A stretch of DNA of 55,910 nt from a virus. Taxonomy: Duplodnaviria; Caudoviricetes. The position numbers and the translations under genes were made by a program. The stretch covers positions 1 through 55,910 of IMG/VR virus record IMGVR_UViG_3300044954_000249. The stretch is one strand, 5' to 3'. Under the pieces are notes generated by a model. That model was not told the origin of the DNA. It ran no database searches and saw only the letters and a program-made list of their open reading frames with translations. This document shows, one piece after another, positions 2,901 through 32,166 of this stretch (its first letter is position 1; the number at the start of each line of letters is the position of its first letter).

Positions 2901-3107
2901 TTAGTTCAACCAATTATTATAAATATGCTCTAATAGGGCGGCCATAGCTTCTTTAGGCGAGACTTTTGCCGAATTCTCTCCGCCAAGTAAATAAAGAGCC
3001 TCGGCTACCCCATCTTCGTAAAATCTTATAGCATTATATTGATATACATTTACCACTAAACTACAAAATAAGACGGCTGGCATTATATGTTTTCTAAGTA
3101 ATTCCAT
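2901..3107 (-). CDS. Hypothetical protein with N-terminal hydrophobic segment
   Basis: 68-aa ORF, 3 nt from the next gene, preceded by GTGTAA at 3118-3123. Confidence 0.65.
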   Translation of the reverse strand: MELLRKHIMPAVLFCSLVVNVYQYNAIRFYEDGVAEALYLLGGENSAKVSPKEAMAALLEHIYNNWLN

Positions 3108-3138
3108 CCCATATAGATTACACTAAAAATAGAAGGAA

Positions 3139-3212
3139 TGGTACGTACAGAAGGGGTCAAACCTCCGACTTGCTCGGTATAAACGAGCCGCTCTACCACT
3201 GAGCTTGCACGC
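3139..3212 (-). tRNA. tRNA-Ile (anticodon UAU), atypical, possibly degenerate
   Basis: Reverse complement GCGTGCA-A-GCTC-AGTGGTA-GAGC-G-GCTCG-TTTATAC-CGAGC-AAGTC-GGAGG-TTTGACC-CCTTC-TGTACGT-A-CCA folds as a cloverleaf with encoded CCA. U8 is missing and the T loop is non-canonical. Confidence 0.8.
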
Positions 3213-3490
3213 TAGAATGAGCAAAAAACTGCGCCGCCTTCACATATATCAACTGATTCTACGTTAAAATGAGTCTTTATCTCGCTTTTATCTGAATCAG
3301 TTAATATATTGCACACAGATCTAAATCCATTTATTGCTGAAATTTCTCTAGCTTTCCTATTACATCCACATCCACCAGATAGACCATTTATGAGGTTAAA
3401 AAGGGCTAATAGTCTCATGTTTTGAGTAGAAAACTTGACCGCTACAATTTCTTTACCGAATTCTAAATGACCGTTAATGATTTTTTTCAT
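3212..3490 (-). CDS. Hypothetical protein (GCGC motif)
   Basis: 92-aa ORF overlapping the upstream gene end. Confidence 0.65.
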   Translation of the reverse strand: MKKIINGHLEFGKEIVAVKFSTQNMRLLALFNLINGLSGGCGCNRKAREISAINGFRSVCNILTDSDKSEIKTHFNVESVDICEGGAVFCSF

Positions 3491-3827
3491 ATATCCTCTT
3501 AATAGAAAAGTAAATTAGTATCGTAATTAAATATGTCCCAGCAATATTTGTTAGTGAATTACCCCAACAAAAAATAAAACCAATCCAAAATCCAAAGCAA
3601 AAAGGACAAGATATCAATCTTGTAACGAAATTGTCCACCTTAATATTTAAAAAAATAGGATAATTGAGGAAAATATTAGACTGTTTAGTCTGAAGGTATT
3701 CTTCAAATAGGGTAATCTTCTTAAGGCCTAAAAGGTTTAGATACTCGGGTAAAGCGTCGGTTTCAAACCATACAGTAAGTAGAAACGCGGCCCAAATTGC
3801 GTTCTCTAAGCACGTAGATAATTCCAT
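3474..3827 (-). CDS. Membrane protein, DUF1360-like
   Basis: Hydrophobic helices plus LISCPFCFGFW (CPxC..W) motif. Confidence 0.65.
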   Translation of the reverse strand: MELSTCLENAIWAAFLLTVWFETDALPEYLNLLGLKKITLFEEYLQTKQSNIFLNYPIFLNIKVDNFVTRLISCPFCFGFWIGFIFCWGNSLTNIAGTYLITILIYFSIKRIYEKNH

Positions 3828-3834
3828 ATGCTTT

Positions 3835-3863
3835 ATAATATCAAGATCTTACCCGTAAGTCAA
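3835..3863 (-). promoter_or_regulatory. Sigma70-type promoter, leaderless
   Basis: TTGACT-17nt-TATTAT, then 7 nt to ATG 3827. Confidence 0.7.
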
Positions 3864-3898
3864 TTCTTCGTATAACCTAATGTGTTAACTTTTCTTTA

Positions 3899-4250
3899 GG
3901 AAGTAAAGCATAATATCCCCTAGAAAAATCTAGGAGATATTATGTGTGCCTACTTTCTTTGAGGCCCTGTTTTAGCAATGCGGATGGGACATACCGCGCA
4001 CACCATAATTAGCTTAACGCTAAAAGTGACTACCATTTTATAATGGCGAGAGAGACCGTACCACAAAGAACTCTGCTTACGTCACCTTACCCTGCTTACG
4101 CAAACGCTGGGATCGGCTCTAGTAATTAACTAGATGTCTTTTCTTCCTGTATGGACAGGAATAGTCATCCCTTGATCGGAAATAGACCAGTTTCCACCCT
4201 ACTTTACTTCGGTTATCTTGGGAAAACTTCACCGATTTCTCTCGGCAAGC
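3899..4250 (-). ncRNA. Candidate large structured ncRNA of unknown class
   Basis: ORF-free region with at least 7 hairpins and an 11-bp long-range helix (4200-4210 with 3900-3910). Plus-strand mismatches become G-U pairs on the minus strand. Confidence 0.55.
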
Positions 4251-4270
4251 TTAAAAAGGATTTCCTTTTT

Positions 4271-4750
4271 TTAAAGACCAGTACTTCCAAAACCATTTTG
4301 ACCTCTATCAGAAATATTTAATTCATTCTTTTCTTCCCACTCAATGTCATAATATTTTTCTATTATGAGCTGGGCAATCCTATCCCCCTTAGAGATAGAA
4401 AATGAATTGGAAGAACCAAATAAATTTTTATAAGCTGTTGCTGATGGAGATTTACTCTCTATTATTTGATTGAGATTGATGAGAACTACTCCAATTTCAT
4501 CTCTATATCCAGAATCAACTACTCCAGCAAGCACATCTATGCCTTTCTTTACTGCTAATCCGCTTCTTGGGGCGATTCTTCCGTAGTAGCCTTCTGGGAT
4601 TTCTATTGCTATACCAATAGGAATTACTCTTCTTTCGAGTGGCGGAATAATTGCTGATTCACAAGCAAATAAATCATAACCAGCGTCTCCGACCCTAGAC
4701 CTTGTCGGCAAAATGGCTTGTGGTTTTAGTTTTACTATTCCGACTTTCAT
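4271..4750 (-). CDS. dut: Trimeric dUTPase
   Basis: Motifs AGYDL, PRSGLA, GVVDSGYRDEI, GDRIAQL, RGQNGFGSTG. Confidence 0.97.
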   Translation of the reverse strand: MKVGIVKLKPQAILPTRSRVGDAGYDLFACESAIIPPLERRVIPIGIAIEIPEGYYGRIAPRSGLAVKKGIDVLAGVVDSGYRDEIGVVLINLNQIIESKSPSATAYKNLFGSSNSFSISKGDRIAQLIIEKYYDIEWEEKNELNISDRGQNGFGSTGL

Positions 4751-4757
4751 CTAAAAG

Positions 4758-4786
4758 ATAGTAGTGTTTTTCTTTAAATCTGTCAA
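4758..4786 (-). promoter_or_regulatory. Sigma70-type promoter, leaderless
   Basis: TTGACA-17nt-TACTAT, then 7 nt to the dut ATG. Confidence 0.75.
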
Positions 4787-5239
4787 TTGAAAATGGCGTC
4801 GAAGCCAAGTATGACAATTTTGGATGCATCAAATAAATTATTTCTTTGGTTTTCAGAAAGGGAAAGTTTTAACATAAACGAGCATTCCGATAAAGAAGAT
4901 TTCTTCGAAAGTAAAAAGTTCAGCAAAACTGACTTAGCGGCATTGATCGGCGCTCTAGATGAATTCGAAAAAATGGAAGTAATTAAAAAGATCGAAGTAG
5001 ACGGGCAAGCAATCTATATTCTAAAAAAGTCATTTGAATCATTTGAGCAGACTATAAAGTTCTCCCCAGAAACGTGCAGATCAATTTCTGAATTTATTAA
5101 TGGGTTTTGTGATATGATAAAGAATGAAACAGATAGATGTGACGTTAAAAACGTGACGGAGAAAGACGTGAAAAACCTCTTAATGATTGCAACTAACTTA
5201 CTTAAACTCGAAGCATCAAAAGAAAAGGGGAGCGAATAA
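4787..5239 (+). CDS. Hypothetical protein (true start may be 4793 or 4811)
   Basis: 150-aa ORF abutting the next gene. Confidence 0.7.
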   Translation: MKMASKPSMTILDASNKLFLWFSERESFNINEHSDKEDFFESKKFSKTDLAALIGALDEFEKMEVIKKIEVDGQAIYILKKSFESFEQTIKFSPETCRSISEFINGFCDMIKNETDRCDVKNVTEKDVKNLLMIATNLLKLEASKEKGSE

Positions 5240-5866
5240 ATGTATATAGGAATAAGCGGATTAGCGGGCGTTGGCAAAGATCTTTTCCTAAAGCTCTTTT
5301 CTGAAGAGATTTCTAAATTGCATCTTACATGCAAAAGATTTGCTTTAGCTGATGAACTCAAAAACGAAATAAATCCAATCCTTCTATCTAAGCATGGTAT
5401 TAATATATTCTCTTGTTCGCGAGAGCAGAAAGAAACAGTAAGACACCTACTTGTTTCTCATGCAAAAATCAAGAGAGAACAAACAAGCGGTCGATATTGG
5501 ATAAATAAGCTCGAAGAAAAAATTGAAAGAGAACAAAAGCCCATAGATTTCGTTTGTATTACTGACATTAGATACGATGAATATGAAAACGATGAAGTAT
5601 CTTGGCTTAAAAATGAAAAGAATGGAATTCTAGTTCATATCTCCAAATACAAAGAGGTTAATGGAAAAAAAATGTTCCAAAATCCACCGAATGACGAGGA
5701 GGCCAGAAATGATCCTAAGTTAAAAAGTCAAGCTGATTACAAAATTTGTTGGCCTCACATGGGTGAAAATAGTTTTAATCCCTTAATTAGAAAAGAGATA
5801 TTGAATTTCTCGAAATGGATTTCTATTAAACATGAGCGGAAACAAACCACATTGGAAAACCATTAA
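5240..5866 (+). CDS. Deoxynucleoside monophosphate kinase-like P-loop protein
   Basis: IGISGLAGVGKD P-loop, FALADELK and ITDIRY..NE motifs. Confidence 0.8.
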   Translation: MYIGISGLAGVGKDLFLKLFSEEISKLHLTCKRFALADELKNEINPILLSKHGINIFSCSREQKETVRHLLVSHAKIKREQTSGRYWINKLEEKIEREQKPIDFVCITDIRYDEYENDEVSWLKNEKNGILVHISKYKEVNGKKMFQNPPNDEEARNDPKLKSQADYKICWPHMGENSFNPLIRKEILNFSKWISIKHERKQTTLENH

Positions 5867-6293
5867 GGAACTCTTTAGCAGCCTAAAGAAGCAGAATATC
5901 CAAAAAGACCTGAAAATTGCTCCGGTCTTAGCGGTTTATTCTTCTGAGCCGGTTAAGTTAAGGGCCGAAGCTGGTAATATATTCAATATAGATACTAAAG
6001 GAAGTGAATATGTTTATCTTTTAAATGTCTTTAAATTTAAAGAGATTAAAACTTATTATCGGTGTTGCTTAGAGGTGGAGATTATCGGGCGAGACGAAGA
6101 TGAGAATGCTAATGAAGAAAAAATATATGGGCAAGACGAGCTAGACCAAGTAGCAGCTTTTATTACAATCCCTAATCGGTTATTTAACATAACCAATAAA
6201 AAGAAAAAGGTAATAACATTTAAAGATATTGAACTAGACTTTAAAGAATATATCAGATTTATTAATATATGGAAAAAAGAAAAGATGACATAA
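5832..6293 (+). CDS. Hypothetical protein
   Basis: 153-aa ORF packed in the operon. Confidence 0.65.
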   Translation: MSGNKPHWKTIKELFSSLKKQNIQKDLKIAPVLAVYSSEPVKLRAEAGNIFNIDTKGSEYVYLLNVFKFKEIKTYYRCCLEVEIIGRDEDENANEEKIYGQDELDQVAAFITIPNRLFNITNKKKKVITFKDIELDFKEYIRFINIWKKEKMT

Positions 6294-6877
6294 TTTTAAT
6301 TAATAAAATTAAAAAAAGAAACTGCGAGAAAAGCCTAAAAGATCTGATAGATAAACATTCGGCTTTATGTATTGATGTATATCGTAAATATGCAGCCCCG
6401 ATGATAAAATCAGGCGTTTGCATAGACCTTTCTTTTAAAGATAAGGATTTGCTTATTTATAAAGCCGCTCTGTCATTCAAAAGCAATAAGAAAACAAAGT
6501 TCTCGACGTGGCTTGGAAATCAAATCAGATATTTTTGTCTAAACTCCATAAATAAAAACGACTTGATTCCGACCGAAGAAGAAATCATCAACCACCACTT
6601 AAATAAAGAAAACTATATAACAGAGTCTAATAATAAGAGCGTGAAGGAGAATGTCGAATACGTTTTCAATATCCTCGACCAAATTAAGGATAAGAGGGTA
6701 GAAAGGGTTTTCTCCCAAAGATATTTTATAAATCCAAATAAAAAGTCTTCTTGGGCTTCTATAGCTAAAAACTTGGGGGTCACTACTCAAACCGTCATTA
6801 ATCTCCACAATAAGGGAATGAAGATCCTCAGAAAAAAAATGAACTCAAAAGATGAATTTGTCATTGACATAATTTAA
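6269..6877 (+). CDS. Phage RNA polymerase sigma factor (sigma70 family, regions 2 and 4)
   Basis: YKAALSFK...TKFSTWLGNQIR (region 2) and SWASIAKNLGVTTQTVINLH HTH (region 4). Confidence 0.8.
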   Translation: MEKRKDDIILINKIKKRNCEKSLKDLIDKHSALCIDVYRKYAAPMIKSGVCIDLSFKDKDLLIYKAALSFKSNKKTKFSTWLGNQIRYFCLNSINKNDLIPTEEEIINHHLNKENYITESNNKSVKENVEYVFNILDQIKDKRVERVFSQRYFINPNKKSSWASIAKNLGVTTQTVINLHNKGMKILRKKMNSKDEFVIDII

Positions 6878-8781: not shown

Positions 8782-10419
8782 ATGAGTAAAGTCCTTCATG
8801 TCAAAAAGCGGAACGGTCGCCTCGAAAACCTCAATATTAATAAAATAAATTTATGCGTAGAAAGAGCCTGCTCTGGATTAGAAAACGTTTCTGTTAGTGA
8901 GATCATCCTTGACGCTCATGTTCAGCTTTATGATAAGATTCCGACCGCTGAGATAGATAAGGCGCTCATCATGTCTGCGCGGACTAAGATTGAAAAGGAG
9001 CCCAATTATGCCCACGCCGCTTCTCGTCTTCTATTAGCCACTATTCTTAAGGAGGTTTTCGGAGAAAATTGCGATAGGGACGCTTTTGAGCATCAATATA
9101 AATCTTCTTTTATTAAAAGCATTAAGATGCTCGTTAAGGAAGAGGTTATTAATCCGAAACTTCTTGAATTTGATCTTAAGAAAATATCAGATGCAATTAA
9201 GCCAGACCGAGATTTAAAATTTAAATATCTTGGTTTGCAGATTGTATATGATCGTTATCTGCTTCATTTGAAGGGCCGTAGGCTTGAAACCCCGCAGGGA
9301 TTCTGGATGCGCGTAGCAATGGGTCTAGCTCTAAACGAGCAGAATAAAGAAGAAAAGGCAATCCAATTTTATGATGCCTTTTCTCAGTTTTTACTTTGCC
9401 CAAGTACTCCGACTCTTTTTAATAGCGGGACTATGCACAGCCAACTTAGTTCTTGCTATCTAAATACCTTCGATGATTCTATTGACGGAATTTTTGAAGG
9501 CTTGTGGCAGGAGGCTCGCAAATCTAAATTCGCTGGCGGTTTGGGCTTCGACGTGACTAATTTCCGTGCCGCAAATGCCTACGTTAAAGGGACCAACGGC
9601 AAATCCTCCGGCTTGATTCCGTGGCTTAAGATTTACAATGATACACTAATCGCAGTTGATCAGGGAGGTAAGAGGCCCGGGGCGGGATGCGCTTATCTTG
9701 AGACGTGGCATTTGGACCTAGAGGATTTTCTCGACTTAAAGAAGAATACCGGTGATGAGCGTCGCCGCTGTCACGATATGAATACAGCGAACTGGATTCC
9801 CGATCTTTTCATGCGTAGAATCCAAGAGGATGGAGACTGGTATCTTTTTTCTCCAAGCGACGTTAGAGATTTGCATGAGACCTATGGGGAAGATTTCGAT
9901 AATAGATATTTAGGTTATTGTAAGAAGGCTGAAGCTGGAGAGCTTCTCAATTTCAGGAAAGTCAAGGCGAAGGAGTTGTGGAAGAAAATGCTCCGCGTAC
10001 TATTTGAAACTGGGCATCCGTGGATAACTTTTAAAGATAACGCCAATTTAAGATATTCAAATTCCCACGAAGGAACGGTTCATAGTTCAAACCTGTGTCT
10101 AACTGGTGATACTCAAATATATGCCTTAGTTGATAAAATGCCAACCCACATAAGCCTAAGAGAGCTAAACGACCTATTCTCACTTAGCAAAGACATGAAA
10201 GTGTTGAGCTATAATGAAAAAGAGCAAGCTTATGAATACAAGAGTATATTAGCTTCGGCCCTGACCAAGAAAAATGCAGATTTGATTAAAATTACCGATT
10301 CTCAGACCGGTAAATCCATTAAGTGTACGCCCGAACATAAAGTTTTTACAAAAAATAGAGGCTACATCCAAGCTAAAGATCTAGCTCCTATGGATGAGCT
10401 AGAAATTCTGGATAACTGA
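8782..10419 (+). CDS. nrdA: Ribonucleotide reductase alpha subunit, N-terminal part, fused to split intein N-fragment
   Basis: ATP cone (VKKRNG), STPTLFNSG, LSSC, QGGKRPGA; extein ends SSNL, followed by intein CLTGDT...CTPEH. Confidence 0.95.
   Translation: MSKVLHVKKRNGRLENLNINKINLCVERACSGLENVSVSEIILDAHVQLYDKIPTAEIDKALIMSARTKIEKEPNYAHAASRLLLATILKEVFGENCDRDAFEHQYKSSFIKSIKMLVKEEVINPKLLEFDLKKISDAIKPDRDLKFKYLGLQIVYDRYLLHLKGRRLETPQGFWMRVAMGLALNEQNKEEKAIQFYDAFSQFLLCPSTPTLFNSGTMHSQLSSCYLNTFDDSIDGIFEGLWQEARKSKFAGGLGFDVTNFRAANAYVKGTNGKSSGLIPWLKIYNDTLIAVDQGGKRPGAGCAYLETWHLDLEDFLDLKKNTGDERRRCHDMNTANWIPDLFMRRIQEDGDWYLFSPSDVRDLHETYGEDFDNRYLGYCKKAEAGELLNFRKVKAKELWKKMLRVLFETGHPWITFKDNANLRYSNSHEGTVHSSNLCLTGDTQIYALVDKMPTHISLRELNDLFSLSKDMKVLSYNEKEQAYEYKSILASALTKKNADLIKITDSQTGKSIKCTPEHKVFTKNRGYIQAKDLAPMDELEILDN
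10096..10416 (+). mobile_element. Split intein N-fragment in NrdA (107 aa)
   Basis: Block A CLTGDT, block B IKCTPEHKVFT, RGYIQAKDL, then stop. Confidence 0.93.
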
Positions 10420-10505: not shown

Positions 10506-10604
10506 ATGCTGACAATTGAAAAGGTAAATTATCAAGAAGACGTGTTCGATATAACTGTGGAAGATAACCACAATTTTTTTGCAAATGATATATTGGTTCA
10601 TAAT
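10506..10604 (+). mobile_element. Split intein C-fragment in NrdA (33 aa)
   Basis: Blocks F and G ending His-Asn; the +1 Cys is at 10605-10607. Confidence 0.93.
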
Positions 10605-11726
10605 TGCACGGAGATCTTTTTACATACTAAGCCTTCTAAATACGAAGAGGGAGAAAAAAAGGAAGTCGGAGAAGCGGCCGTTTGCAATCTCTCTTCGGTT
10701 AATCTTAAAGAACACCTCAAGAACGGGAAGCTGGATTATCCTCTGCTAGCTAAAACTATCGCTACTCAAATTAGGGCTCTTGATAGCGTAATAGATTTAA
10801 ATTTTTATCCGACAAAAGAAGCCGCAAATTCTAATCTAAAGCACCGCCCAGTCGGGGCTGGTTCAATGGGGTGGGCTGACGTTTTTCATGCCTACAAGAT
10901 AGATTTTTCTTCTGAAGAGGCCATTCAATTCTCTGACGAACTACAGGAATTTATTTCTTATCATTGTATTCTGAATTCCTGCGCTTTAGCTAAGGAAAAG
11001 GGAAAATACTCCACTTACAATAATTCTCTTTGGTCTAAGGGGGTCTTACCAATTGATACTTATAAGTCCTTGATGAATTATCTCAAGCAAGATCCAATAG
11101 AATTTAAATCAAATAAATTCTCTCCTAAAGTCGATTGGGACACGCTTCGCGCCTCTATCAAAGAGCATGGGGTTCGCAACAGCAACACGATGGCTATTGC
11201 CCCTACGGCTACCATCTCTTATATTCAGGGGTGCTCTCCATGTATAGAGCCAGACTTCTCTACTCTATTCGTTTACGAAAATAAGAGCGGCAATTTAATG
11301 ATTACAAATGAATGGTTCGTAAATGAATGTAAAGAATTGGGGATCTGGAACAAGTCATTAATTGAAATGATTAAATCTGTTGATGGAGACTTATCTCAAT
11401 TAAACGGTTATATACCGGACGACTTGAAGAAGCGTTACTGTACCGCTTTTGACAGAGACCAATTCAAACTCGTCGATGCTGCCGCAGCCAGACAAAAGTG
11501 GATTGATATGGGGCAAAGTTTGAATTTATTCAACTCTAACACGTCTCTTAAGTTTCTAAATGATTTGTATATTCACGCTCGTAATAGAGGATTGAAAGCT
11601 ACTTATTATCTGCGTAATAAATCAGCGAGCAAAATCGAAAAGTCGGTGACCAAAACGCCAGAAACAAACAATAGCGAACCAAAAGCGTGCAGCATCTTAA
11701 ATCCGGGCTGTGAATCTTGTCAATAA
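10506..11726 (+). CDS. nrdA: Split intein C-fragment fused to ribonucleotide reductase alpha C-terminal part
   Basis: VFDITVEDNHNFFANDILVHN|CTEI, then VCNLSS, AIAPTATIS, GLKATYYLR and C-terminal redox Cys (CSILNPGCESCQ). Confidence 0.95.
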   Translation: MLTIEKVNYQEDVFDITVEDNHNFFANDILVHNCTEIFLHTKPSKYEEGEKKEVGEAAVCNLSSVNLKEHLKNGKLDYPLLAKTIATQIRALDSVIDLNFYPTKEAANSNLKHRPVGAGSMGWADVFHAYKIDFSSEEAIQFSDELQEFISYHCILNSCALAKEKGKYSTYNNSLWSKGVLPIDTYKSLMNYLKQDPIEFKSNKFSPKVDWDTLRASIKEHGVRNSNTMAIAPTATISYIQGCSPCIEPDFSTLFVYENKSGNLMITNEWFVNECKELGIWNKSLIEMIKSVDGDLSQLNGYIPDDLKKRYCTAFDRDQFKLVDAAAARQKWIDMGQSLNLFNSNTSLKFLNDLYIHARNRGLKATYYLRNKSASKIEKSVTKTPETNNSEPKACSILNPGCESCQ

Positions 11727-28930: not shown

Positions 28931-29167
28931 ATGGCTTCTCTTGACTTTGTAATAGATCTGCTGGAAAAAATAGAGTCTCAAAAAATGGGATATTATCTTC
29001 TAATCTCTCAAAGAGAAAAAAAGGGATATAAGTTTGATGCCTTTTATTCCCTTGATAGTGATTATGAAGTGGAAAATTTTGTGAAGGTGAACGACAAGGT
29101 GGTTAAAGATTTAAAAAAGAAGTACGGAATACGGGACACCAAGAAAAAAGGAAACAGAAAGAAATGA
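28931..29167 (+). CDS. Hypothetical protein
   Basis: 78-aa ORF coupled to dnaE by an ATGA overlap. Confidence 0.65.
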   Translation: MASLDFVIDLLEKIESQKMGYYLLISQREKKGYKFDAFYSLDSDYEVENFVKVNDKVVKDLKKKYGIRDTKKKGNRKK

Positions 29168-30942
29168 ACTTTGTAGAAAAATTTTCCGATTATAAATTAG
29201 AAATCCACGGAGTTAGACTCCCCTCATTCGAGATCGAGAAGAAATATAAGCGAGCGATTGGTGTCAGTGAGGACGTTGACAACTACGAATTTCTTCGCGC
29301 CCTTTGCCTTAATGGGTTTAAGTCTCTAAATCTTGCTAAAGATACTCCTGAGTATAAAAAGTATGCCGAAAGAGTTAAATACGAATTAGAAATCATTAAA
29401 GAATTAGGCTTTATTGATTACATTCTCTTAGTATGGGATGTCATCAATTTTTGTAAAGAAAATGATATTCCAACTGGGTTTGGCAGAGGTAGTGCGGCGG
29501 GGAGCCTTATCCTTTTTCTTGTGGGCGTAACGAAAATCGATCCTATAAAATATGATTTGTATTTTGAAAGATTCATCTCTAAAAGTCGCGCCAAAAAACA
29601 AGTTGTAGATGGAGTAACTTACCTTGATGGATCGTTAATGTGCGATGTCGATTTAGATATATGCTATTATAGTCGCTACAAAGTTATTGAGTATCTCGAG
29701 CAGAAGTTTAAAGGAAGAACTGCCAAAGTCTTGACCCTCAATACATTAAGCGGTAAACTCTTAATGAAAGAGTGTGGCAAGATAATATCAAATAAACCAG
29801 AGTCAGAGATGAATGAAGTGTCAGCCCTAATCCCTAAAACATTCGGGCAAGTAAAAGACATTAAAGACGCCTACAAAGACGAAGGGAAGTTCAAAAGCTG
29901 GTGCGATAATAATAAAGAAATTTATAATATAGCACTCGGTCTCCGTGGTTTGATTAAGAATAAGGGCGTACACCCTTCTGCCGTGTTATTATCTTATGAT
30001 TTAATGGAAGATTCTTGTCCAACCGAATTAACATCAAGTAAGGACAGCGAAGTCTCTTCTTATGATATGAATTGGACAAGTGTATTCAATGTGAAATTGG
30101 ACTTACTTGGTCTTAGAAGCGTTTCAGTTGTTGATGACACATGTAAAAATATTGGCATAAAAATGTCGGATATCGATTTTAACGAACCATCGATATACCA
30201 AAACCTACAGGAACTCAAAAGTCCCCACGGTCTTTTCCAAATTGAAGCGGATACCAACTTTAAAGTATGCAATAAAGTAAAACCTAAGAATCTCGACGAA
30301 TTAAGCGCGGTTTTGGCGCTAGCGCGTCCCGGCGCGTTAGATTATGTTGATCAATACGCTCTATTCTCTAATACAAATACAATTCAGTCAATCCATCCAT
30401 TCTTTGACGATATTCTAAATAAGACTGGGGGAGTCGCTCTTTATCAGGAGCAAATGATGAAAATGGCCAATAAAATAGGGTTTACTCTTGATGAGGCGGA
30501 GATATTAAGAAGAATTGTAGGTAAGAAAAAGATTGAAGAAGTCAAGGCATGGAAAGAGAAAATCTCTCTCAAAATTAAAGAGAATAAATTACAACCAGAA
30601 ATAGGTGATATTCTTTGGAAAGTACTGGAGGATTCTGCAAATTACAGTTTCAACAGGTGTCTCTCGGAAGATACCGTTGTAGAAACGGATCATGGGAATA
30701 AAATGCTTTCTGAGGTGAAGAAGGGGGATAAAGTGTTAGCCTATTCTGTAAAAGACGAAAAAGATCATTACGTAGAAGTCCTTGATATTCATAAAAACCT
30801 TAAGGAACTATTCGAAGTAGAACTAGAAGACGGCAGGAAAATCAAATGCTCTATGGAGCATAAATTTTTATGTGAGGATAAGAAAATGAGGCCCCTCAAA
30901 GATATCATTTCTCAAAACCATAGCATTGTATGCAATTATTAA
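29164..30942 (+). CDS. dnaE: DNA polymerase III alpha core (no PHP) fused to split intein N-fragment
   Basis: GRGSAAGS, FERF, DVDLD, HPSAV, KLDLLGL, LFQIE, YQEQ; extein ends YSFNR, followed by CLSEDT. Confidence 0.95.
   Translation: MNFVEKFSDYKLEIHGVRLPSFEIEKKYKRAIGVSEDVDNYEFLRALCLNGFKSLNLAKDTPEYKKYAERVKYELEIIKELGFIDYILLVWDVINFCKENDIPTGFGRGSAAGSLILFLVGVTKIDPIKYDLYFERFISKSRAKKQVVDGVTYLDGSLMCDVDLDICYYSRYKVIEYLEQKFKGRTAKVLTLNTLSGKLLMKECGKIISNKPESEMNEVSALIPKTFGQVKDIKDAYKDEGKFKSWCDNNKEIYNIALGLRGLIKNKGVHPSAVLLSYDLMEDSCPTELTSSKDSEVSSYDMNWTSVFNVKLDLLGLRSVSVVDDTCKNIGIKMSDIDFNEPSIYQNLQELKSPHGLFQIEADTNFKVCNKVKPKNLDELSAVLALARPGALDYVDQYALFSNTNTIQSIHPFFDDILNKTGGVALYQEQMMKMANKIGFTLDEAEILRRIVGKKKIEEVKAWKEKISLKIKENKLQPEIGDILWKVLEDSANYSFNRCLSEDTVVETDHGNKMLSEVKKGDKVLAYSVKDEKDHYVEVLDIHKNLKELFEVELEDGRKIKCSMEHKFLCEDKKMRPLKDIISQNHSIVCNY
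30658..30939 (+). mobile_element. Split intein N-fragment in DnaE (94 aa)
   Basis: Block A CLSEDT, VKKGDKVL, block B LEDGRKIKCSMEHKFL, then stop. Confidence 0.92.
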
Positions 30943-30969: not shown

Positions 30970-31083
30970 ATGCAAACTCTTAAAATTAAATCTATTACTC
31001 CAATAGGCATTAAGCCGACTTTGGATTTGGAGGTTAACCATCCAGATCATAATTTTTACGCTGAAGGAATCGTCACTTCTAAT
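30970..31083 (+). mobile_element. Split intein C-fragment in DnaE (38 aa)
   Basis: Blocks F and G ending Ser-Asn; the +1 Ser is at 31084-31086. Confidence 0.92.
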
Positions 31084-32166
31084 TCCCATAGCGTTGCTTA
31101 TTCAGCTTTGGCGGCCGCTACAATTTATCTTAAATTTAAACATCCTCAAAATTTCTTTTTATCTTTATTGAAAATGACGAGGCATGAGCCTGATCCGACC
31201 TCCGAAATATCTAAAATCCATAAAGAGATGGATTTGTTCTCTATTAAGTTGCTGCCTCCCCATTTGACTAAATCGAAAATAGATTTCTCCGCAGAGAATG
31301 AGAATATAAGATTTGGTCTCTTATCAATTAAGGGAATTTCAGAAAAGTCTATAGAAAAGATTAACAACTTCAGGAATGACTTCTCTAACAAATTTGAAAT
31401 ATTTAAAGCGGCAGAAGAAGCTGGTTTAAATATTGGCATTCTCTGTGCTCTAATTCAAGCTGGTACGCTAGAAGGATTTAAGCAGACTAGAAGCAGGGTT
31501 GTGCTAGAGGCTCAATTATGGCATGTCCTTTCTGAAAGAGAAAGAAAGCACGCAATGATGTTCGCCGAGCAAAAGGATTTCGATTTAGTTGAGATAATTA
31601 AATTCTTAAGGACCTTCAAGGACGAGAAGGGCAAGCCTATAATTAGAGACTCTCGTTATGAAACTATAAAGAAAAATTATCAGCCGTATCTTGAAATTTA
31701 CAATAAGAATAAAAGCTCAGAGAATTTCGCAAACTGGTATTACGAAAAAATGTTACTCGGATATACTTATAATAAAACATTAAAAGATATCTTTTCTGAG
31801 AAACGACCAGACTTATTATCTGTAAGAGAGATAAATCAACGCGCAAAAGGTGAAGAGGTAGTGTTCGTCGGGAGAGTCGAAGATTGCTATGAGGGCACGT
31901 CCAAAGAAAAGAAAACTAAATATTATAAGACTATCGCTTCTGATGAGACCGGCTCTATCAAGGTGATGATCTTCGGAGACAGAAAAGAAGAATGCAGCAA
32001 AATGAATAATGGCCTCCCAGAAGAAGGGAATATTGTGATAGTTAGAGGACGCAAGATGGATGAGGTAGTTTTTGCCGATATTATTGGAATTCAAGACAAT
32101 AAAGTCTATACAAAGTTGTCTGAAATTAAAAGAACCATAGAAAAAGAGAAAAATTTACAAAAATAA
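30970..32166 (+). CDS. dnaE: Split intein C-fragment fused to DNA polymerase III alpha C-terminal part
   Basis: TLDLEVNHPDHNFYAEGIVTSN|SHSVAY, YLKFKHP, IRFGLLSIKGI (HhH), OB fold. Confidence 0.95.
   Translation: MQTLKIKSITPIGIKPTLDLEVNHPDHNFYAEGIVTSNSHSVAYSALAAATIYLKFKHPQNFFLSLLKMTRHEPDPTSEISKIHKEMDLFSIKLLPPHLTKSKIDFSAENENIRFGLLSIKGISEKSIEKINNFRNDFSNKFEIFKAAEEAGLNIGILCALIQAGTLEGFKQTRSRVVLEAQLWHVLSERERKHAMMFAEQKDFDLVEIIKFLRTFKDEKGKPIIRDSRYETIKKNYQPYLEIYNKNKSSENFANWYYEKMLLGYTYNKTLKDIFSEKRPDLLSVREINQRAKGEEVVFVGRVEDCYEGTSKEKKTKYYKTIASDETGSIKVMIFGDRKEECSKMNNGLPEEGNIVIVRGRKMDEVVFADIIGIQDNKVYTKLSEIKRTIEKEKNLQK

What the first reader, a model, noticed from the sequence alone, without database searches (positions are those of the whole stretch)
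3899..4250. Unannotated ~350-nt multi-helix RNA between dut and the tRNA-containing operon
Seen: the longest non-coding gap of a densely packed window. Hairpins at 3909-3944 (16 bp), 3980-3997, 4009-4023, 4033-4046, 4118-4134, 4144-4161, 4178-4195 and 4232-4245. Enclosing helices 4024-4030/4081-4087 and 4109-4113/4167-4171, plus an 11-bp closing helix 4200-4210/3900-3910. Direct repeats ctgcttacg (4073, 4092) and cctacttt (3949, 4198). Three helices are perfect only on the minus strand through G-U pairs, which points to selection on RNA. Established: large phage ncRNAs such as GOLLD and ROOL often lie near tRNAs. I cannot match this one to tmRNA, RNase P or an intron core, so it may be a new class.
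Basis: partly seen in the sequence, partly recalled or inferred. Interest (0 to 1): 0.78.

Follow-up and report, generated by a model that had tools for sequence, protein, structure and literature searches.

The report
New large structured phage RNA family
The gap after the dUTPase gene encodes, on the minus strand, a roughly 370-nucleotide intricately folded non-coding RNA that belongs to a previously uncatalogued family shared by about thirty uncultured large phages, and whose function is still unknown.

Summary
Window 4270-3900 (minus strand) encodes a ~370-nt structured RNA that starts at the dut stop codon and ends in an intrinsic terminator.

I found full-length relatives in 29 other IMG/VR contigs and one MAG contig, giving 26 distinct sequences with a median identity of 49%.

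- **Covariation:** in the central domain 97.9% of cells pair, against 77.8% in shuffles and 33-57% in slid controls. 137 cells are double-compensated against 46 expected.
- **Strand:** 82 G-U cells place the RNA on the minus strand.
- **Conservation:** the RNA is better conserved than the neighbouring protein in 208 of 210 pairs.
- **Known families:** nothing in Rfam 15 matches, even at E<=10. No tmRNA was found, no conserved ORF, and no cultured phage carries it.
eight hairpins and one enclosing helix are conserved. The 11-bp "closing helix" and helix 4109-4113/4167-4171 are not.

The downstream gene varies and has its own promoter, so this is not a leader.

One feature is unexplained. A 20-32-nt segment just before the terminator recurs as a direct repeat just after it, in every member, and the two copies change together lineage by lineage.

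Most likely this is a trans-acting stable RNA released from the 3' end of an early transcript. No transcript data exist.

The parts
4253..4270 (-). P0: a 7-bp A/U-rich hairpin that starts directly after the dut stop codon (4271-4273)
   Evidence: Sequence and MFE. In the family, 3 of 6 pairs show changes on both sides and 86.8% of cells pair.
4224..4252 (-). P1: a 10-bp bulged hairpin. It was the sequence anchor used to find the family.
   Evidence: 93.6% of cells paired and 4 of 10 pairs compensatory. The pattern scan found 11 viral contigs.
4169..4222 (-). Pa: a long-range helix (CCC..GAU at 4222-4215 with AUC..GGG at 4176-4169). It closes a junction that holds P2 (4213-4196) and P3 (4195-4178).
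   Evidence: Per-sequence MFE folds. The CCY/RGG part covaries, with UA 7, CG 6 and UG 6 at one pair. The second segment differs between subtypes but stays complementary.
4162..4189 (-). Tentative pseudoknot PK1: the P3 loop (4189-4185) with the segment after Pa (4166-4162)
   Evidence: Complementary pairs of differing sequence are seen in several members. This is not significant in duplex-versus-shuffle tests, where 5 of 25 reach p<=0.05.
4144..4161 (-). P5 hairpin, followed by the conserved A-rich linker at 4143-4136
   Evidence: Compensatory change against L002.
4118..4134 (-). H6 hairpin
   Evidence: 5 of 6 pairs compensatory and 98.7% of cells paired.
4090..4110 (-). H7: a short conserved helix. 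In the window and L002 only, it carries an inserted hairpin.
   Evidence: The pairs are nearly invariant, so there is no covariation support.
4024..4087 (-). H8 (4087-4081 with 4030-4024). It encloses H8a (4074-4051), whose 16-nt loop is among the most conserved sequence of the family, and H8b (4047-4032).
   Evidence: H8: 6 of 7 pairs compensatory. H8a closing pair: UA 10, AU 8, GC 6, CG 1. The loop motif alone retrieved 25 viral contigs.
4009..4023 (-). H8c hairpin. It has a GNRA tetraloop in many relatives.
3940..4008 (-). H9: a long-range helix (4008-3998 with 3949-3940). It encloses H9a (3997-3980) and a possible loop pseudoknot PK2 (CCC at 3988-3986 with GGG at 3967-3965).
   Evidence: H9 appears in most single-sequence MFE folds with different stem sequences. 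For PK2, 22-23 of 26 pair but are nearly invariant.
3945..3964 (-). M1: the repeat copy inside the RNA. Its purine-rich 5' half is unpaired and its 3' half is the 3' strand of H9.
3900..3944 (-). T: an intrinsic terminator, hairpin 3944-3909 plus a U-rich tail
   Evidence: It is the only terminator-like site in 3100-5300. Equivalent sites occur in L066 and L072. A GC-rich stem plus U run is present in all 26 sequences.
3881..3900 (-). M2: the direct-repeat copy of M1 (16 of 20 identical). It lies just past the terminator and just upstream of the next promoter-like site.
3835..3863 (-). Promoter-like site (TTGACT, 17 nt, TATTAT, TG-extended) for the DUF1360-like gene
   Evidence: This is a consensus match only.
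4271..4750 (-). dut (dUTPase), probably co-transcribed with the RNA. A promoter-like site lies at 4786-4758.
4811..5239 (+). ORF150: a small winged-helix-like protein, divergent from dut here, that is always near the RNA
   Evidence: A homologue lies within 2.4 kb in 29 of 29 loci. Model pLDDT 91.8. Fold hits are weak only.

Best explanation
Window 4270-3900 (minus strand) is the gene for a ~370-nt independently folding non-coding RNA. It is a member of a previously uncatalogued family carried by uncultured large tailed phages.

**Architecture**
- 5' domain: P0 and P1, then Pa closing a junction with P2 and P3, then P5.
- Central domain: H6, H7, and H8 enclosing H8a and H8b.
- 3' domain: H8c, then H9 enclosing H9a.
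- Two tentative loop pseudoknots.
- Several unpaired stretches conserved in 90% or more of the sequences, some of them invariant.

**Proposed way of working (inferred)**
1. The RNA is made as the 3' continuation of the preceding early gene. That gene is dut here and a small winged-helix-like ORF in most relatives.
2. Transcription stops at the RNA's own intrinsic terminator.
3. The released RNA acts in trans as a stable structured RNA, as a protein or RNA partner, a scaffold or a catalyst. It does not act as a leader for a particular gene.

**Status of each step**
- Shown: conserved structure, strand, family, synteny, and a terminator-like 3' end.
- Inferred: co-transcription and trans action.
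- Unknown: the molecular target.

My confidence in a real structured RNA family on this strand is about 0.9. For trans action it is about 0.45.
For: **Family**
- Two sequence patterns retrieved 11 and 25 viral contigs.
- 27 of the 33 loci L063-L095 are full-length nhmmer hits, E 1e-39 to 1e-111.
- Two more members come from a third pattern.
- Together this gives 26 distinct sequences.
- A covariance model of the central domain finds exactly one full-length hit of 77-120 bits in each of 31 family sources, out of 91 sources (771 kb) searched. Nothing else scores above 19.2 bits.

**Structure**
- Central domain: 23 pairs, 97.9% of cells paired against 77.8% shuffled (0 of 500 shuffles as high). 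137 double-change cells against 46.3. Slid controls give 33-57%.
- 5' block: 90.8% against 85.5%, and 33 double-change cells against 8.7.
- The window and L002 alone already show 9 compensatory pairs among 83 predicted.

**Strand**
- 82 G-U cells.
- The MFE is better on the minus strand.
- The terminator is detected on the minus strand only.

**Selection**
- The RNA block is 73-90% identical to L002, while the flanks are 43-82% and mostly 50-70%.
- RNA nucleotide identity exceeds ORF150 amino-acid identity in 208 of 210 pairs.
- GC is 0.433 against 0.381 in the flanks, and higher in 25 of 26.

**Not coding**
- The longest ORFs have a median of 40 aa, at varying positions.

**Not a leader**
- The downstream gene differs between loci: DUF1360-like, dNMP kinase, a convergent sulfotransferase, or GT2.
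- A promoter-like site follows the RNA in 3 of 3 loci scanned.

**Co-transcription**
- The RNA starts within 82 nt of the ORF150 gene in 20 loci, and within 238 nt of dut (mostly 31 nt or less) in 9 loci.
- A 10-11 of 12 promoter match lies upstream of the preceding ORF in the window and L066.
Against: - **No transcript evidence.** Only 4 DNA runs hold the sequence, so neither expression nor the RNA ends are shown.
- **No partner, target or activity is known.**
- **An RNA-specific promoter inside the upstream ORF cannot be excluded.** Weak 9 of 12 matches exist.
- **The M1/M2 repeat is not explained by a purely trans-acting RNA.** M2 also sits next to the next promoter. Both hint at a local, cis or DNA-level, role for at least the 3' module.
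- **The covariation statistics use related sequences and MAFFT alignments.** R-scape-type significance was not computed.
- **PK1 and PK2 are unproven**.
Confidence: 0.6

Rival explanations
1. The element is cis-acting and controls read-through or expression of its neighbours. In this reading the RNA, or its 3' module M1-T-M2, modulates termination at T or activity of the promoter just downstream. The winged-helix-like ORF150 protein might bind the paired M1 and M2 sites as DNA operators.
For: - M1 and M2 flank the terminator in 26 of 26 sequences and change together lineage by lineage: score 28.7 within a genome, 16.8 between lineages, 14.2 shuffled.
- M2 ends 1-12 nt upstream of a -35-like hexamer in 3 of 3 loci.
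- An ORF150 homologue lies within 2.4 kb in 29 of 29 loci.
- The ORF150 model (pLDDT 91.8) resembles winged-helix DNA binders, though only weakly, with best E 0.012.
Against: - About 300 nt of conserved multi-domain structure upstream of M1 is far more than a terminator switch or operator needs.
- The downstream gene is not constant, and in L064 and L066 it is convergent.
- M2 shows no better pairing with the H9 5' strand than shuffles, -7.1 against -7.7.
- M1-to-M2 spacing varies continuously from 57 to 73 nt.
- Binding by ORF150 is untested.
Confidence: 0.2
2. The RNA is a replication-origin primer. In this reading a structured transcript, comparable in principle to ColE1 RNA II, forms a persistent hybrid near its 3' end. 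Because M1 is identical to the non-template strand of M2, the RNA could pair with the template strand there.
For: - The RNA sits among nucleotide-metabolism and replication genes: dut, dNMP kinase, RNR, helicase and polymerase in the same window.
- M1 RNA is complementary to the M2 template strand, which follows.
Against: - There is no GC-skew switch at the locus. The cumulative skew minimum lies near 4700-4800, at the divergent promoters.
- If M1 paired at M2, the terminator hairpin would be left as an unpaired 3' flap that could not prime. This is inference.
- No iteron array is present, and there are no other M copies in 55.9 kb.
Confidence: 0.07
3. The region is a DNA-level element, such as a protein-binding array, a recombination site or a packaging site, and its apparent RNA structure is incidental.
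For: - Direct repeats flank an inverted repeat.
Against: - Compensatory changes preserve pairing in at least 22 pairs across two alignments.
- 82 G-U cells are tolerated on one strand only.
- A DNA site would not select for either feature.
Confidence: 0.04
4. The RNA is a very divergent or permuted member of a known family, such as RNase P RNA, tmRNA, a group I intron, GOLLD, ROOL or phi29-type pRNA.
For: The size and complexity are in the range of such RNAs.
Against: - No Rfam 15 family reaches its gathering score anywhere in the window except the tRNA.
- At E<=10 only 8 and 5 chance-level hits occur in the window, all far below their gathering scores. None occur in the L002 homologue.
- ARAGORN finds no tmRNA.
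- No gene is interrupted. dut and the next ORF are complete.
Confidence: 0.03

Closest known systems
GOLLD and ROOL RNAs (large phage- or prophage-associated ncRNAs of unknown function)
   Same: - All are large, multi-helix, phage-borne RNAs of unknown function.
- In the window and L002 a tRNA lies about 0.7 kb downstream.
- Weinberg et al. 2017 describe GOLLD and ROOL as often lying near tRNAs and in prophages (passages read in PMC5737381).
   Different: - There is no match to either Rfam model.
- This RNA is about 370-400 nt, and I recall those RNAs as larger.
- tRNA proximity is not general: 7 of 11 loci have no tRNA in the flanks.
- This family has fixed synteny with ORF150, dut and dNMP kinase, and carries the M1-T-M2 repeat.
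- Oligomerisation was not tested.
P4 CI RNA and P1/P7 c4 RNA (immunity RNAs flanked by repeated target sequences; recalled, not read here)
   Same: In both cases a phage RNA gene is flanked by short direct repeats whose sequence is lineage-specific.
   Different: - In those systems the repeats are complementary to a loop of the RNA. Here no consistent complement of M of 8 nt or more exists within 3 kb on either side.
- Here one repeat is itself part of the RNA.
- This RNA is several times larger.
- No Rfam hit.
ColE1 RNA II (structured replication primer; recalled)
   Same: Both are long, highly folded transcripts whose 3' region could hybridise with nearby DNA.
   Different: There is no evidence of an origin here, no antisense partner was identified, and the RNA ends in an intrinsic terminator.
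csRNAs of Fremin et al. 2023 (IMG/VR-wide catalogue of candidate structured RNAs, PMC10690425)
   Same: They use the same data source and the same kind of evidence, namely covariation in phage intergenic regions.
   Different: - Their 8495 IMG/VR candidates are 29-151 bases long, with a mean of 67 (passages read), so the whole ~370-nt RNA is not one of them.
- Single hairpins or the terminator could be.

Membership tests
Any Rfam 15 family (4227 models) | Score at or above the family's gathering threshold | tested here: not met
   - The only hit in the whole window is the tRNA.
- At E<=10 the best hits in the gap are sroB at 24.8 bits against 44, and PyrD_leader at 23.4 against 47.
- The L002 homologue gives 0 hits at E<=10.
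GOLLD / ROOL | Match to the family covariance model | tested here: not met
GOLLD / ROOL | Frequent location next to tRNA genes | tested here: inconclusive
   A tRNA lies within 0.7 kb in the window and L002. tRNAs lie 4-5 kb away in 4 loci. 7 of 11 loci have none in the flanks.
tmRNA | tRNA-like domain plus tag reading frame, as detected by ARAGORN | tested here: not met
   No tmRNA in the window, in L002, or in 11 family loci.
Group I / group II intron | Interrupts a host gene and matches an intron model | tested here: not met
   dut ends with its own stop codon at 4271 and the next ORF starts at 3827. No intron model hit.
Riboswitch or 5' leader | A constant downstream gene controlled in cis | tested here: not met
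   The downstream gene is DUF1360-like in 9 loci and dNMP kinase within 68 nt in 10 loci. It is a convergent sulfotransferase or GT2 in others. A promoter-like site follows the RNA in 3 of 3 loci.
Intrinsic (Rho-independent) terminator, for the 3' hairpin only | A GC-containing stem followed by a U run | tested here: met
   Window 3944-3909 plus tail. L066 10128-10158 and L072 8587-8613.
c4 / CI-type antisense immunity RNA | The flanking repeats are complementary to a loop of the RNA | tested here: not met
   No consistent complement of 8 nt or more within 3 kb on either side. M2 does not pair with the H9 5' strand above chance.
The new family itself (working definition) | Full-length hit to model R1 (the central domain, H6 to H8) | tested here: met
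   Window 4021-4143 minus, 77.1 bits, E 1.3e-12. It is the lowest of 31 full-length hits, because of an inserted hairpin in H7.
Replication primer RNA (RNA II-like) | A persistent RNA-DNA hybrid at an origin | not testable with these tools
   Only composition could be examined.

The most novel reading that the evidence does not exclude
This is a new class of large phage RNA, a ribozyme or RNP core, with a self-referential 3' module. The last ~25 nt of the RNA before its terminator (M1) are mirrored in the DNA just past the terminator (M2), directly upstream of the next promoter.

In this reading the finished RNA acts as a decoy or competitor for a co-evolving sequence-specific factor that also reads M2. 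The neighbouring winged-helix-like ORF150 is the obvious candidate. Accumulation of the RNA would thereby be coupled to the switch-on of the next early or middle transcription unit.
Probability: 0.12. Interest if true: 0.9.

Novelty: categorically new. Interest (0 to 1): 0.74.

Why it matters
New structured RNAs of more than 300 nt with many covarying helices are rare. The few known ones (ribosomal RNAs, RNase P, group I and II introns, tmRNA, OLE, GOLLD, ROOL) are either catalytic, parts of large RNPs, or form unexpected assemblies.

This family is confined, as far as I searched, to one lineage of uncultured lake and marine phages with genomes up to about 160 kb. It sits in their early nucleotide-metabolism region and is better conserved than the neighbouring ORF150 protein. 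It therefore probably does something important during infection.

The M1-terminator-M2 arrangement has no counterpart among the systems I compared it with (GOLLD/ROOL, P4 CI and P1 c4, ColE1 RNA II), the latter three from recall. It gives a concrete experimental handle.

The family is now defined well enough, with an alignment, a covariance model and coordinates in 30 contigs, for probing, cryo-EM or metatranscriptome mining.

"Categorically new" is meant here at the level of RNA class. Pieces of the RNA may already sit unnamed in the IMG/VR csRNA catalogue, whose supplements I could not open.

Tried and rejected
**Searches that found no further members**
- Three exact-word scans of viral contigs with conserved stretches re-found only L002's contig.
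- The single metagenome scan gave 8 contigs. Two are copies of L002's sequence and six are unrelated chance matches.
- Of 37 dut-linked loci, only L002 carries the RNA.
- Cultured-phage searches with three family members found nothing relevant.
- The third pattern gave 4 GC-rich chance hits among viral contigs. None of the genome-contig loci scanned carried the RNA, and the MAG contig L091, matched again, was already known.
- The RNA was not found in 150 other genomes of the order of the MAG that holds L091.

**Transcript evidence**
- No RNA holder is listed among sequencing runs. The four DNA runs showed no variants.

**Hypotheses about M1 and M2 that failed**
- The P0 region as a third M copy: score 12.7-13.9 within genomes against 13.4 shuffled.
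- M2 as an alternative partner of the H9 5' strand: no better than shuffles.
- A hairpin formed by the post-terminator region: mean z +0.29.
- M as a multi-copy promoter: there is no other copy in the window.
- A complementary partner of M within 3 kb on either side: none is consistent.

**Weak or unproductive tests**
- Pa, H9 and PK1 tested by duplex energy against shuffles gave weak per-sequence p values: 7 of 26, 2 of 26 and 5 of 25 at p<=0.05. These helices therefore rest on the pattern of covarying stems rather than on energy.
- MAFFT misaligns H9 and H9a between subtypes, so tool-based pair counts for the 3' domain are weak: 75% paired against 69.4%.

- Supplements of PMC10690425 could not be read.

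**Ideas set aside**
- Resemblances to RNase P and T-box motifs that I recalled from memory were not borne out by Rfam, and I dropped them.

Full report
**Observation**

The window is a 55.9-kb fragment of an uncultured virus record, estimated 36% complete by CheckV. It carries dut, dNMP kinase, ribonucleotide reductase, a DnaB-like helicase, a DnaE-like polymerase, a UvsX-like recombinase and a lambda-J-like tail protein.

Between dut (4271-4750, minus) and a DUF1360-like ORF (3474-3827, minus) lies a 443-nt gap that holds only ORFs of 56 aa or less. Several measures set it apart:
- GC is 0.43 against 0.27-0.37 around it.
- As minus-strand RNA it folds to -129.9 kcal/mol (z -3.87). As plus-strand RNA it folds to -111.6 (z -3.13). 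In both cases 0 of 100 shuffles fold as well.

**Not a known RNA**

- Rfam 15 at gathering thresholds finds only the tRNA-Ile(TAT) at 3139-3212 in the whole window.
- With permissive filters and E<=10, the gap gives only chance-level hits far below their gathering scores.
- The closest homologue gives no hits at all.
- ARAGORN finds no tmRNA.

**Finding relatives**

- Of 37 viral loci found through dut, only L002 has the element. The match is 82% identical over 378 nt, although the two dUTPases are only 67% identical in amino acids.
- Along a 2.6-kb alignment, the block 4254-3928 is 73-90% identical, while the flanks are 43-82% and mostly 50-70%. The two sequences alone show 9 compensatory pairs among 83 predicted.
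- Exact-word scans and the one metagenome scan added nothing new.
- A search through the DUF1360-like neighbour gave a divergent third copy, L049.
- From the three sequences I derived a degenerate pattern for the 5' hairpin, which hit 11 viral contigs.
- A pattern for a conserved loop hit 25 viral contigs, and a third pattern added two more.
- All are full-length by nhmmer, E 1e-39 to 1e-111.
- The total is 30 IMG/VR contigs of 12-162 kb, counting the window, plus one 44-kb contig binned into a MAG. This gives 26 distinct sequences among the 29 first analysed, with pairwise identity 35-99% and median 49%.
- No cultured phage has it.
- It was not found in 150 other genomes of the MAG's order.

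**Structure**

Central domain (alignment A6):
- RNAalifold predicts 23 pairs, 13 of them with compensatory changes.
- On that structure 97.9% of cells pair, against 77.8% after shuffling partners (0 of 500 shuffles as high) and 33-57% when partners are slid by 1-3 columns.
- 137 cells carry changes on both sides, against 46 expected.
- H6 has 5 of 6 covarying pairs and H8 has 6 of 7.

5' block:
- P0, P1 and the CCY/RGG part of Pa give 90.8% paired against 85.5%, and 33 double-change cells against 8.7.

Single-sequence folds show the same architecture in three subtypes of the 5' domain. Pa closes a junction with P2 and P3, followed by P5.

The 3' domain shows H8c, the long-range helix H9, and H9a inside it. 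By my reading, H9's stem sequence differs from lineage to lineage while staying complementary.

Two loop pseudoknots are plausible but unproven.

Of 388 well-occupied columns, 42 are invariant and 89 are conserved in 90% or more of the sequences. By my reading, many of these lie in loops and junctions.

A covariance model of the central domain finds one full-length copy in each of 31 family sources, and nothing above 19.2 bits in the other 60 sources or the rest of the window.

**Strand, and not coding**

- 82 of the 574 cells are G-U. On the plus strand these would be A-C.
- The 3' hairpin scores as a terminator on the minus strand only.
- The longest ORFs in the 26 sequences have a median of 40 aa (sense) and 44 aa (antisense), at inconsistent positions.

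**Context**

- In 20 of 29 loci the RNA begins within 82 nt of the end of a ~140-aa ORF with no Pfam family, here called ORF150.
- In 9 loci, including the window, it follows dut, and ORF150 lies divergently within 2.4 kb.
- The gene after the RNA varies. In 3 of 3 loci scanned, that position is preceded by a near-consensus promoter match lying after the RNA.
- Strong promoter matches lie upstream of the preceding ORF in the window and L066.
- Taken together, this fits an RNA transcribed as the tail of an early mRNA and ended by its own terminator. It does not fit a leader.
- The ORF150 model is confident (pLDDT 91.8). Its fold hits are weak (best E 0.012, none at or below 0.001), and most of the top-ranked ones are winged-helix DNA-binding proteins.

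**The unexplained repeat**

In every member, the 20-32 nt just 5' of the terminator (M1, window 3964-3945) recur as a direct repeat (M2, window 3900-3881). M2 starts 8-20 nt, mostly 14-16 nt, after the terminator stem. Per-genome identity runs from 16 of 20 to 26 of 33.

The two copies track each other:
- The local score averages 28.7 within a genome, 16.8 between lineages and 14.2 for shuffles.
- A genome's own M2 ranks first in 11 of 22 lineages and in the top four in 21 of 22.
- A constant indel pattern separates the copies, which argues against simple homogenisation.

M1's 3' half is the 3' strand of H9.

Four simple explanations failed:
- alternative pairing of M2 with H9
- a post-terminator hairpin
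- a genome-wide promoter motif
- a nearby complementary target

M2 abuts the next -35-like hexamer in 3 of 3 loci. The leading ideas are paired operators, or an RNA decoy, for a co-evolving factor. Neither is tested.

**Comparison and verdict**

The RNA behaves like the orphan large phage RNAs GOLLD and ROOL in size class and in our ignorance of its function, but it fails every membership test I could run. tRNA proximity is also not a family trait.

Literature searches and passages read in PMC5737381 and PMC10690425 show no description of it. The IMG/VR csRNA catalogue holds only 29-151-nt motifs. Its supplements, which could contain fragments of this RNA, were closed.

I conclude that this is a real, new class of large structured phage RNA. 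Its mechanism is open. No transcript data exist, because no RNA run holds the sequence.

Noticed in passing
window 8782-10419 and 10506-11726 (+): The ribonucleotide reductase large subunit is split into two adjacent ORFs that match consecutive parts of PHROG 84 (positions 60-493 and 488-794), with an 86-nt gap between them. A split gene, an intron or an intein remnant was not examined.
   Followed up: no
window 29164-30942 and 30970-32166 (+): The DnaE-like DNA polymerase is likewise in two ORFs that match consecutive parts of PHROG 405 (312-793 and 793-1099), 27 nt apart.
   Followed up: no
window 4811-5239 (+) and homologues in 29 of 29 loci: A ~140-aa protein family with no Pfam match is always within 2.4 kb of the RNA. 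The model is confident (pLDDT 91.8), with an N-terminal winged-helix-like part and two long C-terminal helices. Fold hits are weak only.
   Followed up: partly
window 6269-6877 (+): A 202-aa sigma-factor-like ORF gives weak PHROG 351/36 hits. tblastn found a homologue near the RNA in 15 of the 29 loci tabulated.
   Followed up: no
window 3139-3212 (-): tRNA-Ile with anticodon TAT directly abuts the stop of ORF 3212-3490. L002 has tRNA-Val and tRNA-Ser at the corresponding place instead.
   Followed up: no
L091 (MAG contig CAZYHH010000001.1, 44 kb): A contig binned as an uncultured Pseudomonadales MAG carries the same RNA and the same gene order as viral contigs L073 and L088. It is probably a phage contig in the bin. 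None of 150 other genomes of that order has the RNA.
   Followed up: partly
window 4090-4110 (-), and L002: Only the window and L002 carry an extra ~11-nt hairpin inserted in helix H7.
   Followed up: partly
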